From IMG/VR virus record IMGVR_UViG_2698536620_000015: a stretch of 49,469 nt of DNA; one strand, written 5' to 3'. Positions 15,001 through 18,000 of this stretch are shown here, piece after piece. The stretch's first letter is position 1, and every line of letters starts with the position of its first letter. A program made the position numbers. Origin of the DNA: a virus (lineage: Duplodnaviria > Heunggongvirae > Uroviricota > Caudoviricetes).

Positions 15001-18000
15001 NNNNNNNNNNNNNNNNNNNNNNNNNNNNNNNNNNNNNNNNNNNNNNNNNNNNNNNNNNNNNNNNNNNNNNNNNNNNNNNNNNNNNNNNNNNNNNNNNNNN
15101 NNNNNNNNNNNNNNNNNNNNNNNNNNNNNNNNNNNNNNNNNNNNNNNNNNNNNNNNNNNNNNNNNNNNNNNNNNNNNNNNNNNNNNNNNNNNNNNNNNNN
15201 NNNNNNNNNNNNNNNNNNNNNNNNNNNNNNNNNNNNNNNNNNNNNNNNNNNNNNNNNNNNNNNNNNNNNNNNNNNNNNNNNNNNNNNNNNNNNNNNNNNN
15301 NNNNNNNNNNNNNNNNNNNNNNNNNNNNNNNNNNTTAAGTCACTGACCGGAACAGATAAACCTGTCCGTGGGCAGAAACCGATAAATCCTGATAAATATC
15401 CATGAACGCAAAAATCAGATACGGCCTGTCGGCTGCCGTTCTGGCACTGATTGCCGTCGGTGCGCCCGCGCCTGATATTCTCGACCAGTTTCTGGATGAA
15501 AAAGAAGGTAACCACACAACGGCATACCGCGATGGGTCCGGCATCTGGACCATCTGTCGGGGTGCCACGATGGTGGATGGAAAACCCGTTTTTCCCGGTA
15601 TGAAACTGTCGAAGGAAAAATGCGACCAGGTCAACGCCATTGAGCGTGATAAGGCGCTGGCATGGGTGGAGCGCAATATTAAAGTACCACTGACCGAGCC
15701 ACAAAAAGCGGGTATCGCGTCATTTTGTCCCTATAACATTGGCCCCGGTAAGTGTTTTCCGTCGACGTTTTATAAGCGGCTGAATGCTGGTGATCGTAAA
15801 GGTGCATGCGAGGCGATTCGCTGGTGGATAAAAGATGGTGGGCGCGATTGCCGCATACGTTCAAATAACTGCTATGGACAGGTTATTCGTCGTGACCAGG
15901 AAAGCGCATTAGCCTGTTGGGGGATAGATCAGTGAGCAGAGTCGCCGCGATTATTTATGCTCTGGTTATCTGCATCATCGTCTGCCTGTCGTGGGCGGTC
16001 AATCATTACCGTGATAACGCCATCGCCTACAAAGAACAGCGTGATAAAAAAGTCAGTGAGCTGAAGCAGGCGACCGCCACCATTACTGACATGCAGCAAC
16101 GCCAGCGTGCTGCTGATGTACTCGATGCTAAATACACGAAGGAGTTGGCTGATGCGAAAGCTGAAAATGATGCTCTTCGGCGCAAGCTTGATAATGGTGG
16201 TCGGGTGCTCGTCAAAGGAAAATGCTCTGTGCCATCCTCAGCCGAAACCTCCAGCGCCTCCGGCATGGGCAATGATGCCACCGTCGAACTCTCTCCAGTT
16301 GCTGGACGAAACGTTCTCGGTATCCGGGACGGAATCATCAGAGACCAGACAGCACTGAGAACGCTTCAGGAATATATCAGGACGCAATGCCTTCGATGAT
16401 AGCGATAATTTTACTCATCATCCTTCACATTTGGCTCTGTAGACAGGGTGGTGATCACTTCTGGAGTGAATCCAGATTAAACATCTCATTGCTGATGCTT
16501 GAAGTTGAGCATCTGGCGCGCGGTAAGGGGCTGCGTTGAAATAAGAGCCAGTCATTAAAAATACCTGGATTTAGCCTCGCATTCGCGGGGCTTTTTATTG
16601 CCATTACAAAAGCCACTCCCTACAGAGTGGCTTTGATAATGGCTTATACCCTACACGGGATAACTTAACTGATATCCCTTTTAACGGATAAAGGTATTCA
16701 AGCCTGACACATCATGCGCTGTATCGTCGCCGTATTCCCGTATTAACAGAGACCGTAGCCCGACGGGGAACTCCTTCTGCGAGAGTGTGCGGGAATAATC
16801 AAAAACGATGCACACCGGGTTTTTACCGCGTTTATGGTTCGCGGGTTTGTCCCTCATGCTCGCCAGTCCTGTGCGGGGGTGGAAGAAACAGGATACTCAC
16901 ACAGATTCTTGTGGGCACGATGCTATTCCTTTCTGGATTATCCCGATGCCATTCATGCAAGGCGCTGTATCAGACGTTCGTCATGTCTGTCAGGCTGACG
17001 GGTCCTCCCGGTGGAGTGGCCTGCCACGGGGCGGGAGCGTCGCGGAAAAAGGCTAGTTTTTGAAATTTCATTCGTCATCACCACCACTGTAATAGATTGA
17101 TATTACAGTGGTTTTGTTTTTATGGTGTCGATTTTGATTGTTTTTTGTTCATCACTAACACCGTTTGCCTAAAGTTGTTCGCGAGATGCATGTTTAAAAC
17201 ATTCTGGAGCGGGTATGGATCGAGAGTTAAAAAATCTGACGCTGAATATCAGTCAACTGGCGGCACTGTCAGGTGTACATCGCCAGACTGCTGCGGCAAG
17301 GCTGCAAAATCTACCCGTTGCAGGGGGGCATGAAAGCAACCTCAAGCTTTATCGGGTGGTTGATATTGTGTCGGCATTTCTGGCATTGCCACCGCCGGTT
17401 GCAGAAGGCGAAATGGACGCGCATGAGCGCAAAGCCTGGTATCAGTCTGAACGTGAGCGTCTTAAGTTCGAACAGGAAACGGCACAACTCATTCCGGCCA
17501 GTGATGTCAGACGGGAGTTTGCCATCTGGGCAAAAGCGGTCGTGCAGGTGCTGGAGACATTACCGGATATTCTGGAACGTGACTGCGGTCTGCAGCCTGC
17601 CGCTGTGAGCCGTGTTCAGTCCATTATTGATGATCTGCGCGATCAGATAGCCCTGCGGGTGACTGAAGCAGGTGCGGATGATGAGGAGGAATTACAGCAG
17701 GAGGAGTAATGCTGAATCAGGAAACCGCAAAGGCAGCACGAACCGATTCAGGTTATATCCTTCGCGCACCGAGACGAATGCGGGTTGCTGATGCCGTTGC
17801 TCAGTATATGCGGGTGCCCATGGGGGCAGGGAACTCAGTCCCGTGGGATCCGCTGGTGGCACCGTATGTTATTGAGCCGATGAACTGCCTGGCCTCGCGT
17901 GAATACGACGCAGTGATATTTGTTGGCCCGGCACGAACCGGCAAGACTATCGGCCTGATTGACGGCTGGGTGATTTACAACGTGATTTGCGATCCTGCTG

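What the first reader, a model, noticed from the sequence alone, without database searches (positions are those of the whole stretch)
16400..17214. About 800 bp non-coding segment between lysis and terminase genes with several strong hairpins: likely cos/terminase recognition region
No convincing ORF. Hairpins at about 16573-16602 (GCCTCGC...GCGGGGC plus T-tract) and 16610-16640 (AAGCCACTC-CCTACA-GAGTGGCTT). An 11-bp perfect inverted repeat CCACTGTAATA-gattga-TATTACAGTGG at 17084-17111 is followed by TTTTGTTTTT. A stretch near 16810-16850 (CGGGTTTTTACCGCGTTTATGG) is reminiscent of the lambda sequence next to cosN. Position just upstream of Nu1 fits cosQ/cosN/cosB, but the exact cohesive end cannot be placed.
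Basis: partly seen in the sequence, partly recalled or inferred. Interest (0 to 1): 0.4.

Follow-up and report, generated by a model that had tools for sequence, protein, structure and literature searches.

The report
Lambda-type cos site of a prophage
The last ~215 bases of this gap are an ordinary lambda-type DNA-packaging (cos) site of an E. coli prophage, which can now be placed to the base, while the rest of the gap is terminators, a doubtful tiny gene and a widespread conserved non-coding block that has nothing to do with packaging.

Summary
The window is an mEp460/Ayreon-like lambdoid prophage of E. coli.

A lambda-like cos lies at 17000-17214:
- cosQ is GGGTCCT at 17000-17006.
- cosN is CCACG|GGGCGGGAGCGT|CGCGG. 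The predicted 12-nt 5' cohesive end is 17029-17040. It differs from lambda only at positions 7, 8, 9 and 11, the naturally variable half.
- cosB holds three TCRWCAC repeats in + - + order at 17075, 17125 and 17149.
- A perfect IHF consensus sits between the first two repeats, at 17090-17102.
- The small terminase gene starts 187 bp from the predicted end (191 bp in lambda).

Phage records cdtI and Tritos open exactly at this 12-mer.

It is the R3 edge plus the IHF site, and its arms are not kept complementary in relatives.

The "cosN-like" stretch at 16810-16850 is not cos. It is homologous to the lambda bor-p78 intergenic DNA. The two hairpins at 16573-16633 are a plus-strand terminator and the conserved edge hairpin of a ~290-bp non-coding block found in most E. 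coli genomes.

The nick positions are inferred by homology, not measured. Novelty is low.

The parts
16387..16539 (+). 50-aa small ORF overlapping the end of Rz. It is a possible tiny membrane protein and is not part of cos.
   Evidence: It matches phrog_11822 at E = 9e-38, function unknown. RefSeq annotates it as hypothetical. It is open in 28 of 29 unique variants, with variable sites 9/7/13 by codon position.
16573..16600 (+). Intrinsic-terminator-like hairpin plus T-run after the lysis cassette.
   Evidence: Flagged by the terminator scan. Folds at -15.4 kcal/mol, z = -3.3. Annotated as a terminator in the Ayreon record. A similar hairpin sits directly before cos in Citrobacter phage Chris1.
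16610..16633 (.). Conserved hairpin that forms the left edge of the widespread non-coding block. On the minus strand it is followed by TTTTGT.
   Evidence: z = -5.1 on the plus strand and -6.1 on the minus strand. Three sequence types keep the stem through changes on both arms. One type lacks a T-run on either strand.
16600..16893 (.). A ~290-bp conserved non-coding block with an ultra-conserved core at 16634-16700.
   Evidence: Part or all of the 815-bp segment matches 347 phage records and 4350 of 5426 E. coli genomes; the many Stx-phage hits cover only 16600-16893. Copies differ by frameshifting indels and show no codon periodicity. Positions 16715-16822 are 82% identical to lambda 46868-46974 and to the DLP12 borD-ybcV spacer. 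The block is followed by unrelated packaging modules and is absent within 700 bp of terS in 21 of 80 phages with an identical TerS. No Rfam match.
17000..17006 (+). cosQ, GGGTCCT, the packaging-termination signal. It is the left boundary of the cos module.
   Evidence: Identical to lambda cosQ, 29 bp before the predicted nick versus 30 bp in lambda. The composite pattern cosQ-N22-ACGGGGCGG occurs once in the window, with 0.00 expected. Among phages with a 100% identical TerS, the DNA left of it falls into at least 6 unrelated classes while cosQ onward is conserved.
17024..17045 (.). cosN, the nicking site: CCACG|GGGCGGGAGCGT|CGCGG.
   Evidence: Aligns to lambda TTACG|GGGCGGCGACCT|CGCGG. The left half GGGCGG and both CG flanks are kept, as PMC4669245 describes for lambda-like phages.
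17029..17040 (+). Predicted 12-nt 5' cohesive end, GGGCGGGAGCGT. The top-strand nick falls at 17028/17029 and the bottom-strand nick at 17040/17041.
   Evidence: The cdtI record (AB285204.1) begins, and the Tritos record (OV696610.1) begins and ends, exactly here with the identical 12-mer. It differs from lambda at bp 7, 8, 9 and 11 only. The position is inferred, not measured.
17074..17089 (+). R3-like TerS binding site, GTCATCACCACCACTG, with core TCATCAC at 17075-17081 (mature bp 47-53).
   Evidence: Same position as lambda R3, whose CGTTTCC core is at bp 53. PMC9026076 cites Higgins and Becker for a cut 47 +/- 2 bp from the R site. A CATCA(T/C)CA element sits at this place in most other DUF1441-TerS phages compared (Gifsy-2 and cdtI differ). 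The core is nearly invariant in about 70 variants while the bases after it vary.
17083..17112 (.). It overlaps the 3' part of R3 and the whole IHF core.
   Evidence: Searches confirm it. In 66 relatives with an identical TerS the outer arm pairs are often non-complementary: 17084/17111 is C-T or C-A in 22, and 17085/17110 is T-G in 35.
17090..17102 (-). I1-like IHF binding site, TATCAATCTATTA on the minus strand, a perfect WATCAANNNNTTR match.
   Evidence: One of only 3 exact matches in 49.5 kb. In 66 variants the fixed consensus positions are invariant or nearly so, and the strong variation is confined to two of the N positions, 17094 and 17095. A match with 0-1 mismatch in the same orientation lies at mature bp 61-65 in 8 of the 9 DUF1441-TerS phages compared, and at bp 79 in lambda.
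17112..17121 (-). A-tract (AAAAACAAAA on the minus strand) 9 bp 5' of the IHF core. It is read as the A/T element of an attP-H'-type IHF site rather than a terminator U-tract.
   Evidence: Sequence. The tract is conserved apart from G/A at 17116. The comparison with the lambda attP H' site rests on my own knowledge, not on a test here.
17124..17132 (-). R2-like site in inverted orientation, GGTGTCGAT, with core TCGACAC on the minus strand at 17125-17131 (mature bp 97-103).
   Evidence: An inverted TGTCGA or TGATGA element sits at the equivalent place in 7 other DUF1441-TerS phages.
17148..17156 (+). R1-like site, TTCATCACT, with core TCATCAC at 17149-17155 (mature bp 121-127). It is preceded by the conserved GTTTTTTGTTC.
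   Evidence: The arrangement GTTTTTTGTTC followed by (A/G)(T/A)CA(T/C)C is conserved across the family.
17215..17709 (+). Small terminase subunit (DUF1441 family), the presumed cosB reader.
   Evidence: Matches PF07278 at 2.7e-41 and phrog_141 'terminase small subunit' at 7e-74. The start is at mature bp 187, against 191 in lambda. The AF2 model (pLDDT 79) has an N-terminal strand-helix-helix-wing-helix. Its closest small-domain fold matches are 6hn7_B (prob 0.99, TM 0.56) and MerR-type wHTH domains.
17709..19811 (+). Large terminase subunit of the gpA family, the enzyme that would nick cosN.
   Evidence: GpA_ATPase at 4e-72 and GpA_nuclease at 1e-85.

Best explanation
Window 17000-17214 is the cohesive-end (cos) site of a lambda-like cos-packaging prophage. 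It has the same three-part plan as lambda cos.

Proposed mechanism. Steps 1 and 2 are read from the sequence and from comparison. Steps 3 to 5 are inferred from the lambda paradigm.
1. The DUF1441 small terminase binds three short repeats in cosB through an N-terminal winged helix-turn-helix. The repeats are TCATCAC at 17075 (R3, +), TCGACAC at 17125 (R2, inverted) and TCATCAC at 17149 (R1, +).
2. Host IHF binds the perfect consensus at 17090-17102 between R3 and R2, helped by the A-tract at 17112-17121. It bends the DNA so that R3 and R2 can be held together.
3. This anchors the gpA-type large terminase about 47 bp away on cosN. There it nicks the top strand between 17028 and 17029 and the bottom strand between 17040 and 17041. 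The result is 12-nt 5' cohesive ends, GGGCGGGAGCGT.
4. Terminase stays on the cosB end, docks on the portal and packages rightward.
5. At the next cos on the concatemer, cosQ (GGGTCCT, 17000-17006) together with cosN signals termination.

The rest of the reported segment is not packaging signal. It holds a possible 50-aa gene, a plus-strand terminator closing the lysis cassette, and a mosaic non-coding block shared by lambdoid phages with unrelated packaging systems.
For: cosQ and cosN:
- Alignment to lambda shows cosQ identical, the left half of cosN identical and both CG flanks identical. The 12-mer differs only at bp 7, 8, 9 and 11.
- PMC4669245 states that cosQ and bp 1-6 are conserved. 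It also states that bp 7-12 vary naturally: N15 at 9 and 12, Gifsy-1 at 8, 9 and 11.
- The composite cosQ-cosN pattern is unique in the window, with 0.00 expected.
- The records of phages cdtI and Tritos are opened exactly at this 12-mer.

Architecture:
- The predicted end to the terS ATG is 187 bp, against 191 bp in lambda.
- Three TCRWCAC copies lie in + - + order within 81 bp at mature bp 47, 97 and 121. Lambda R3, R2 and R1 cores are at 53(+), 114(-) and 155(+).
- The same plan recurs in PhiR47_1, CP-1639, Chris1, mEp043, VT1-Sakai, Gifsy-2 and Fels-1.

IHF site:
- It is a perfect consensus, one of 3 in 49.5 kb.
- Its variation pattern follows the consensus in 66 relatives.
- Its position and orientation are conserved at bp 61-65 across 8 of the 9 DUF1441-TerS phages compared.

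Module boundaries:
- Among 80 phages with an identical TerS, conservation starts at cosQ and the DNA to its left is mosaic.
- The same cosN 25-mer is joined to three different cosB classes, each with its own TerS type, like lambda versus phage 21.

Enzymes:
- TerL has the gpA ATPase and nuclease domains, and the portal is of the lambda family.
- The TerS N-terminus is predicted to be a winged HTH. Its structural neighbours include a chain of the PICI Rpp-TerS study entry (6hn7_B) and MerR-type domains.
- hhalign gives a collinear full-length alignment to Nu1, E = 0.0056.

Relatives with published ends:
- Cyanophage Cr-LKS3 has a TerS 40% identical to this one. It is reported to have 5' cohesive ends whose first 4 bases and flanks match lambda (PMC9303873).
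- LLS and mEp213, with a TerS 57-58% identical, are inferred to have GGGCGGCGCGCT ends (PMC12315714). I found that 12-mer at the equivalent place in mEp043.
Against: - No virion end has been measured for this prophage or for mEp460 or Ayreon. The Ayreon authors say they did not locate cos and opened the record arbitrarily. The mEp460 record likewise starts at terS.
- I could not confirm that the cdtI and Tritos record starts were determined experimentally rather than by homology.
- The mEp460_4F5 record opens 5 nt to the left of my nick and lacks 2 bases of the 12-mer.
- The R-site motif was defined after looking at the sequences. As a 7-mer it is not enriched in the window overall: 29 found, 27 expected. 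Only its clustering, orientation and cross-phage conservation support it.
- TerS shows no significant sequence similarity to Nu1, and the hhalign probability is only 6.5%.
- All Foldseek E-values are above 0.001.
Confidence: 0.9

Rival explanations
1. The palindrome at 17083-17112 with its T-run works mainly as a Rho-independent terminator or attenuator (an RNA hairpin). It would stop unmodified transcripts before the terminase genes. On this reading it is not a protein-binding part of cosB.
For: The terminator scan flags it: 12 pairs, a 6-nt loop and a TTTGTTTTTA tail. The RNA fold is -16.8 kcal/mol, z = -4.6. The T-run is conserved in relatives. This reading is not mutually exclusive with cosB.
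Against: - The stem is only 4 of 12 G-C pairs.
- In 66 relatives with an identical TerS the outer pairs are frequently broken: C-T or C-A in 22, and T-T or other non-pairs in a few more.
- Variation tracks the IHF consensus rather than base pairing.
- More distant family members keep the IHF match at the same place but no palindrome.
- Q-modified late transcription would read through it in any case (established knowledge of lambda).
Confidence: 0.15
2. cosN lies at the place the first reader pointed to, about 16810-16850, next to CGGGTTTTTACCGCGTTTATGG.
For: There is a superficial resemblance to lambda bp 13-33 (CGCGGGTTTTCGCTATTTATG), and a 10-mer is shared with lambda bp 12-21.
Against: - No GGGCGG-type nick sequence and no cosQ lie to its left.
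- The stretch is homologous to lambda 46868-46974 and the DLP12 borD-ybcV spacer, 1.5 kb away from lambda cos.
- It is absent within 700 bp of terS in many phages with an identical TerS.
- It occurs in phages with HK97-type HNH terminases.
Confidence: 0.02
3. The prophage packages by a headful (pac) mechanism, or its cos is a dead relic, so the sequence has no current function.
For: No end mapping exists for this lineage. The window is a prophage whose viability is unknown.
Against: - TerL is a full-length gpA-family enzyme with both domains.
- Free-living, plaque-forming or inducible relatives (mEp460, Ayreon, phi458, 569R4) carry the same cos and the same TerS at 94-100% identity.
- cosQ, the left half of cosN, the IHF core and the R cores are held constant across about 70 variants while the flanks vary.
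Confidence: 0.03

Closest known systems
Bacteriophage lambda cos (cosQ-cosN-cosB with R3-I1-R2-R1)
   Same: - cosQ is the identical 7-mer, at nearly the same distance from the nick (29 vs 30 bp).
- cosN bp 1-6 and both CG flanks are identical.
- The length inferred for the overhang is 12 nt, 5'.
- The subsite order is R3(+), IHF site, R2(-), R1(+).
- R3 begins about 47 bp from the nick.
- terS starts about 190 bp from the left end, followed by a gpA-type terL, a W-like gene and a lambda-family portal.
   Different: - The cohesive end differs at bp 7, 8, 9 and 11.
- The R repeats are short TCRWCAC elements unrelated to lambda's CGTTTCC repeats.
- R3-R2 and R2-R1 spacings are shorter: 50 and 24 bp against 61 and 41 bp.
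- The IHF site is a perfect consensus at bp 62-74, against bp 79 in lambda.
- The lambda-like GATGATAATCATTATCA element left of cosQ is missing here.
- TerS is DUF1441, with no detectable sequence similarity to Nu1.
cos of Gifsy-1/Fels-1/VT1-Sakai-type lambda-like phages with DUF1441 small terminases (described for Gifsy-1 in PMC4669245 and PMC9026076)
   Same: - Same TerS family, 40-56% identity to Fels-1, Gifsy-2 and VT1-Sakai.
- Same cosB plan: a CATCATCA-type R3, an IHF match at bp 61-65, an inverted R2, a T-rich spacer and R1.
- The Gifsy-1 cohesive end is reported to differ from lambda at 8, 9 and 11. This one has the same three changes plus bp 7.
   Different: - The Salmonella and Citrobacter members use GGTACTCC instead of GGGTCCT at the cosQ position.
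- The R-core sequence here is TCATCAC/TCGACAC rather than CATCATCATCA.
- I did not retrieve the Gifsy-1 sequence itself.
Phage cdtI and Tritos cos (records AB285204.1 and OV696610.1)
   Same: cosQ, the spacer, the 12-mer GGGCGGGAGCGT and the next 21 bases are identical or nearly so. Both records start at the 12-mer.
   Different: From about bp 34 onward cosB is unrelated: GGCGGCGGCAGCATG at the R3 place and TTTTCACCTG repeats. TerS is only 42% identical. The relation is like that of lambda to phage 21: shared cosN, different packaging specificity.

Membership tests
lambda-like cos site | A 7-bp cosQ (GGGTCCT) about 30 bp upstream of the top-strand nick. | tested here: met
   GGGTCCT at 17000-17006, 29 bp before the predicted nick. 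The composite pattern is unique in the window, with 0.00 expected.
lambda-like cos site | A cosN with a conserved left half (GGGCGG) and CG dinucleotides flanking both nick positions. Variation is tolerated at bp 7-12. | tested here: met
   CCACG|GGGCGGGAGCGT|CGCGG. The differences from lambda fall at bp 7, 8, 9 and 11 only. The criterion is taken from PMC4669245.
lambda-like cos site | Virion DNA carries 12-nt 5' single-stranded cohesive ends at this position. | not testable with these tools
   There is only indirect support. The cdtI and Tritos records open here. The ends were not mapped for Ayreon. A relative with a homologous TerS (Cr-LKS3) is reported to have 5' cohesive ends.
lambda-like cos site | A cosB with three TerS-binding repeats R3(+), R2(-), R1(+), with R3 about 47 bp from the nick. 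| tested here: inconclusive
   Three TCRWCAC copies lie at mature bp 47(+), 97(-) and 121(+). The same plan occurs in 7 other family members and the R3 core is constant in about 70 variants. However, the motif was defined post hoc and binding is untested.
lambda-like cos site | An IHF site (I1) between R3 and R2. | tested here: met
   There is a perfect WATCAANNNNTTR at 17090-17102(-). Its conservation follows the consensus. Its position is conserved at bp 61-65 in 8 of the 9 DUF1441-TerS phages compared. Binding itself was not tested.
lambda-like cos site | It lies immediately upstream of terS-terL, with a gpA-family large terminase. | tested here: met
   GpA_ATPase at 4e-72, GpA_nuclease at 1e-85 and the lambda-family portal at 3e-81.
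Nu1 family of small terminases (Pfam Phage_Nu1) | Sequence membership in the Nu1 family. | tested here: not met
   The Pfam hit is DUF1441 only. BLASTP against lambda Nu1 gives E = 20. hhalign gives E = 0.0056 but probability 6.5%.
Nu1 family of small terminases (Pfam Phage_Nu1) | An N-terminal MerR-like winged helix-turn-helix DNA-binding domain, followed by a helical oligomerisation region. | tested here: inconclusive
   The AF2 model (pLDDT 79) shows strand-helix-helix-wing-helix and then long helices. Foldseek hits include 6hn7_B (prob 0.99, TMt 0.56), MtaN, BldC and RacA. All E-values are 0.05 or higher.
Rho-independent terminator (for the palindrome 17083-17112) | A stable stem kept by base-pair-preserving variation, followed by a U-tract. 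| tested here: not met
   The stem and T-run are present in this window. In relatives the outer pairs are often broken and the variation follows the IHF consensus instead.
Rho-independent terminator (for hairpin 16573-16592) | A G+C-rich stem followed by a T-run on the transcribed strand, at the end of an operon. | tested here: met
   It has 8 pairs, 6 of them G-C, followed by TTTTTATT, with z = -3.3. It lies 34 nt after the last plus-strand ORF of the lysis cassette. Termination itself was not measured.
Known RNA families (Rfam 15) | A match to a covariance model at or near its gathering score. | tested here: not met
   Only two matches with E of about 0.8, far below gathering (18-19 bits against 50-55), over 15000-18500.

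The most novel reading that the evidence does not exclude
The ~290-bp block at 16600-16893 may be a functional element rather than recombination debris. Its features are an ultra-conserved 65-bp core at 16634-16700, an edge hairpin kept by compensatory changes, and no coding signature. It sits at the lysis/packaging module boundary of lambdoid phages with unrelated terminases, and part or all of the 815-bp segment that contains it matches about 80% of complete E. coli genomes. It could be, for example, an unannotated small RNA or a late-transcript processing or stability signal. Separately, in this lineage the palindrome could make the IHF site double as a transcriptional attenuator guarding the terminase genes in the lysogen.
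Probability: 0.15. Interest if true: 0.5.

Novelty: new member of a known kind. Interest (0 to 1): 0.15.

Why it matters
Practical value only. The cos site of the mEp460/Ayreon group was explicitly left unplaced by its describers, and the records are opened arbitrarily. Placing cosQ, the 12-nt end and cosB to the base allows these genomes and the many related E. coli prophages to be oriented and annotated correctly. It also predicts a packaging-specificity group: the same cosN as cdtI and Tritos with a different cosB and TerS. Finally, it gives concrete targets for cos-plasmid or transduction work. It does not change any concept, because it is the lambda paradigm with a different small-terminase reader.

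Tried and rejected
- **Using the ends of the mEp460 and Ayreon records as physical ends.** Rejected. Both records open at the terS start (window 17190), and the Ayreon paper says this was arbitrary.
- **Rfam scan at E <= 1 over 15000-18500.** Only two chance-level hits.
- **Literature check on the cdtI and Tritos record starts.** The cdtI paper is not held. The Tritos paper does not mention cos mapping. Vahanian 2017, the cosN survey, is not held.
- **Searches for the 12-mer and for the conserved core in papers.** Nothing relevant.
- **Looking for viral contigs that end at the 12-mer.** None of 120 did. They are mostly prophage-derived, so the result is uninformative.
- **Single-sequence AlphaFold of TerS.** Too poor in the N-terminal domain. 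Repeated with a 38-sequence alignment.
- **ORFs spanning cos (16785-17063, 16808-17056; 'putative late gene regulator' in Ayreon).** Rejected as genes. Several frames are open in this G+C-rich stretch and none is kept in Tritos, cdtI or lambda.
- **The 58-aa minus-strand ORF.** Rejected as a gene.
- **GGTTTTTACCGCGTTTA as a PhoP box.** Considered and dropped. There is no downstream -10 element, and the perfect PhoP-box-like repeat (TGTTTA-5 nt-TGTTTA) that I read upstream of lambda bor lies elsewhere (sequence; the PhoP-box consensus is from my own knowledge).
- **Pas, AgvB and AsxR prophage sRNAs as an identity for the conserved block.** Rejected. They lie near Q and the holin-lysozyme genes and are in Rfam, which gave no hit.
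Full report
**Context**

The window is a lambdoid prophage of E. coli. The 815-bp segment is 100% identical to strain CDF6, and part or all of it is found in 4350 of 5426 complete E. coli genomes. Its closest phage relatives are vB_EcoS-569R4, mEp460, Ayreon and the PhiR phages, at 94-98% identity.

The gene order around the segment is as follows:

| Coordinates | Feature |
|---|---|
| 15402-15935 | Lysozyme |
| to 16399 | Rz |
| 16400-17214 | The segment under study |
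| 17215-17709 | Small terminase of the DUF1441 family |
| 17709-19811 | gpA-family large terminase |
| downstream | W-like gene, then a lambda-family portal |

**Checking the observation**

The three hairpins and the quoted string are all at the stated coordinates. Each hairpin folds better than all 200 dinucleotide shuffles, with z between -3.3 and -6.1. The consensus scan flags 16573-16592 and 17083-17112 as terminator-like.

Two small CDSs are annotated in RefSeq inside the segment.
- The 50-aa ORF at 16387-16539 has a PHROG family of unknown function. It is open in 28 of 29 variants, with only a weak third-position bias. It may be real.
- The 58-aa minus-strand ORF at 16681-16857 is intact in only 26 of 98 unique copies. 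Copies differ by frameshifting indels, and variability shows no codon periodicity. It is not a gene.

**Where cos is**

Aligning the segment with the joined ends of lambda gives one clear region of similarity:

- lambda: ACGGGTCCTTTCCGGTGATCCGACAGGTTACG|GGGCGGCGACCT|CGCGGGTTTTCGCTA
- window: ACGGGTCCTCCCGGTGGAGTGGCCTGCCACG|GGGCGGGAGCGT|CGCGGAAAAAGGCTA

From this:
- cosQ (GGGTCCT) is at 17000-17006.
- The predicted top-strand nick is between 17028 and 17029.
- The predicted 12-nt cohesive end is 17029-17040.

The composite pattern GGGTCCT-N15-30-ACGGGGCGG occurs once in the 49.5-kb window, with 0.00 expected.

The 12-mer differs from lambda at bp 7, 8, 9 and 11 only. Feiss and colleagues report that cosQ, bp 1-6 and the CG pairs flanking the nicks are conserved among lambda-like phages. 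They also report that bp 7-12 vary freely: N15 at 9 and 12, Gifsy-1 at 8, 9 and 11 (PMC4669245). This sequence fits that rule exactly.

**Independent support from database records**

- The cdtI record starts, and the Tritos record starts and ends, exactly at this 12-mer with identical flanks.
- The mEp460 and Ayreon records instead open at window 17190. That is merely the terS start, and the Ayreon authors state they opened the genome there because cos had not been located.
- The mEp460_4F5 record opens 5 nt left of my nick and lacks two bases of the 12-mer.
- I could not establish that any of these record ends was measured.
- For a relative with a homologous TerS, the cyanophage Cr-LKS3 (40% identity), 5' cohesive ends with the lambda-like first four bases and flanks are reported (PMC9303873).
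- For LLS and mEp213 (57-58% TerS identity), GGGCGGCGCGCT ends are inferred with Feiss's help (PMC12315714). I find that 12-mer at the equivalent place in mEp043.

**cosB**

From the predicted left end to the terS ATG is 187 bp, against 191 bp in lambda. I compared the region with seven other phages that have DUF1441 small terminases: PhiR47_1, CP-1639, Chris1, mEp043, VT1-Sakai, Gifsy-2 and Fels-1. They share one plan:

1. cosN
2. CGCGGAAAAAGGC..TTTTT
3. a CATCA(T/C)CA-type element
4. an IHF-like TAAnnnnTTGATA
5. an inverted TGTCGA or TGATGA element
6. GTTTTTTGTTC
7. a direct TCATCA or TCGACA element
8. the terS start

In the window the three repeats fit TCRWCAC at 17075(+), 17125(-) and 17149(+), which are mature bp 47, 97 and 121. 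Lambda's R3, R2 and R1 cores are at 53(+), 114(-) and 155(+). The first repeat lies at the roughly 47-bp distance from the nick that lambda terminase measures (Higgins and Becker, cited in PMC9026076). That review also states that Gifsy-1 has the R3-I1-R2-R1 arrangement.

The motif was defined after inspection and is not enriched window-wide: 29 found, 27 expected. The support is therefore its clustering, its orientation, its recurrence across phages, and the near-invariance of the R3 core in about 70 variants while the bases after it vary.

**The IHF site and the palindrome**

It is one of three such matches in the whole window.

I collected 80 viral contigs whose TerS is 100% identical to this one. 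They give 66 usable cos variants. In these:
- The fixed positions of the consensus (TAA and TTGATA) are invariant or nearly so.
- The strong variation is confined to two of the four N positions, 17094 and 17095.
- The outer pairs of the palindrome are often not complementary. Pair 17084/17111 is C-G in 43 but C-T or C-A in 22. Pair 17085/17110 is T-G in 35.

A match with 0-1 mismatch, in the same orientation, lies at mature bp 61-65 in 8 of the 9 DUF1441-TerS phages compared, and at bp 79 in lambda.

The T-run after the palindrome reads AAAAACAAAA on the IHF strand, 9 bp 5' of the core. From my own knowledge, this resembles the A-tract of the attP H' site.

I conclude that the palindrome is the overlap of the R3 edge with an I1-type IHF site, and that it is not a conserved terminator. 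A secondary attenuator role in this particular lineage is not excluded.

**Module boundaries**

Among the identical-TerS phages, the DNA immediately left of GGGTCCT falls into at least six unrelated classes. One of them is the lambda-like GGTGATAATCACTCTCATTTT class. Everything from cosQ rightward is conserved, so the functional module starts at cosQ.

The exact cosN 25-mer is joined to three different R3-position sequences: the window type, the PhiR47_1 type and the cdtI/Tritos type. Each goes with a different TerS. This is the same relation as lambda to phage 21, with a shared cosN and different specificity.

**The small terminase**

- It is DUF1441 and phrog_141.
- It has no BLAST similarity to Nu1.
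- The hhalign alignment to Nu1 is collinear over 140 columns. It pairs LNISQLAALSGVHRQT...AGGHESNLKLY with VNKKQLADIFGASIRT...GGGKGNEVLY, but only at E = 0.0056 and probability 6.5%.
- An AlphaFold model with a 38-sequence alignment (pLDDT 79) has an N-terminal strand-helix-helix-wing-helix followed by long helices.
- Foldseek finds nothing at E <= 0.001. Among its best small-domain matches are 6hn7_B (prob 0.99, TM 0.56), from the study of PICI Rpp bound to helper-phage TerS, and MerR-type winged HTH domains (MtaN, BldC, RacA).

It therefore probably works like Nu1, but it is not a member of the Nu1 sequence family.

**The rest of the segment**

Hairpin 16573-16592 is a plausible plus-strand terminator closing the lysis cassette. 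Ayreon annotates it as such.

Positions 16600-16893 form a block found in hundreds of phage records, including many Stx phages.
- Its left edge is the hairpin 16610-16633. The stem is kept in three different sequence versions.
- A 65-bp core at 16634-16700 is almost invariant among the 98 unique copies collected; these were retrieved through an exact 22-mer inside the core, so 16657-16678 is invariant by construction.
- Positions 16715-16822 are 82% identical to lambda 46868-46974, between bor and lambdap78, and to the DLP12 borD-ybcV spacer.
- Positions 16828-17028 match the last 205 bp of Tritos after ybcW.

The Rz-cos interval here is thus the version without the bor, ybcV and ybcW genes found in that interval in lambda and DLP12.

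The block always follows the lysis and late accessory genes. It precedes quite different packaging modules: DUF1441, Nu1 and cdtI-type TerS, HNH plus HK97-type TerS, or ybcV. It is missing within 700 bp of terS in 21 of 80 identical-TerS phages, so it is not a packaging signal. It has no Rfam match and no literature trace. Its function, if any, is open.

**Verdict**

This is an ordinary lambda-type cos site, now placed to the base by homology and comparative constraint. It belongs to a lineage whose cos had not been described. Its specific pointers are mostly off, and the cohesive end can in fact be placed. The nick positions and protein binding remain inferences until virion ends are sequenced.

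Noticed in passing
window 16600-16893 (core 16634-16700; edge hairpin 16610-16633): A ~290-bp conserved block with no coding signature sits at the boundary between the lysis and packaging modules. Part or all of the 815-bp segment that contains it matches 347 phage records and about 80% of complete E. coli genomes. It lies next to unrelated terminase types. Its edge hairpin is kept by compensatory changes. Part of it is homologous to the lambda bor-p78 and DLP12 borD-ybcV spacers. It has no Rfam family and no literature hit. It could be a moron 3'UTR or terminator relic, a recombination linker or an unannotated RNA.
   Followed up: partly
window 16387-16539 (+): A 50-aa ORF overlaps the Rz stop and has a hydrophobic N-terminus (phrog_11822, unknown function). 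It is open in 28 of 29 unique variants but has only a weak third-position bias. It is possibly a real micro-protein of the lysis cassette.
   Followed up: partly
L008/L009 (LR595868.1, phage mEp460_4F5), record ends: The deposited genome is opened 5 nt left of the predicted nick. It lacks two bases inside the predicted cohesive end (GGGCGGGAGCG--CGG). This looks like an assembly artefact at a physical end, but I could not verify that.
   Followed up: no
window 16808-17056 (+) and 16785-17063 (+): ORFs that run across cosQ and cosN are annotated in several phage records (phrog_17397; 'putative late gene regulator' in Ayreon). They are not conserved in Tritos, cdtI or lambda and are probably annotation artefacts of a G+C-rich, stop-poor stretch.
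   Followed up: yes
L145-L224 and L225 onward (viral contigs), region equivalent to window 17029-17110: One identical cosN 25-mer is coupled to three unrelated cosB/R3 classes with three TerS types. This implies at least three packaging-specificity groups sharing one cohesive end among E. coli prophages.
   Followed up: partly
window 16970-16999, and L154, L215, L218: The DNA just left of cosQ contains GCTGTCAGGCTG(A/T)C. In some relatives this is expanded into 2-3 tandem copies of GCTGTCAG. Other relatives carry a lambda-like GATGATAATCA...TCATTTT element there instead.
   Followed up: no
window 14919-15334, 30328-30551, 34991-35271, 43615-43911 and several shorter runs: There are runs of N (masked sequence). 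The first covers the region between the methylase gene and the lysozyme gene, where relatives carry the holin gene.
   Followed up: no
window 17097-17126 (+): A sigma-70-like match, TTGATA-18 nt-TATGGT (9 of 12), lies inside cosB and overlaps the IHF core. It is probably chance: 2 promoter-like sites were found in the region against 1.2 expected.
   Followed up: no
window 39425-39978 and 45085-45400: Clusters of the TCRWCAC 7-mer on the minus strand show a repeating spacing. They are probably repeated tail-fibre DNA rather than terminase sites.
   Followed up: no
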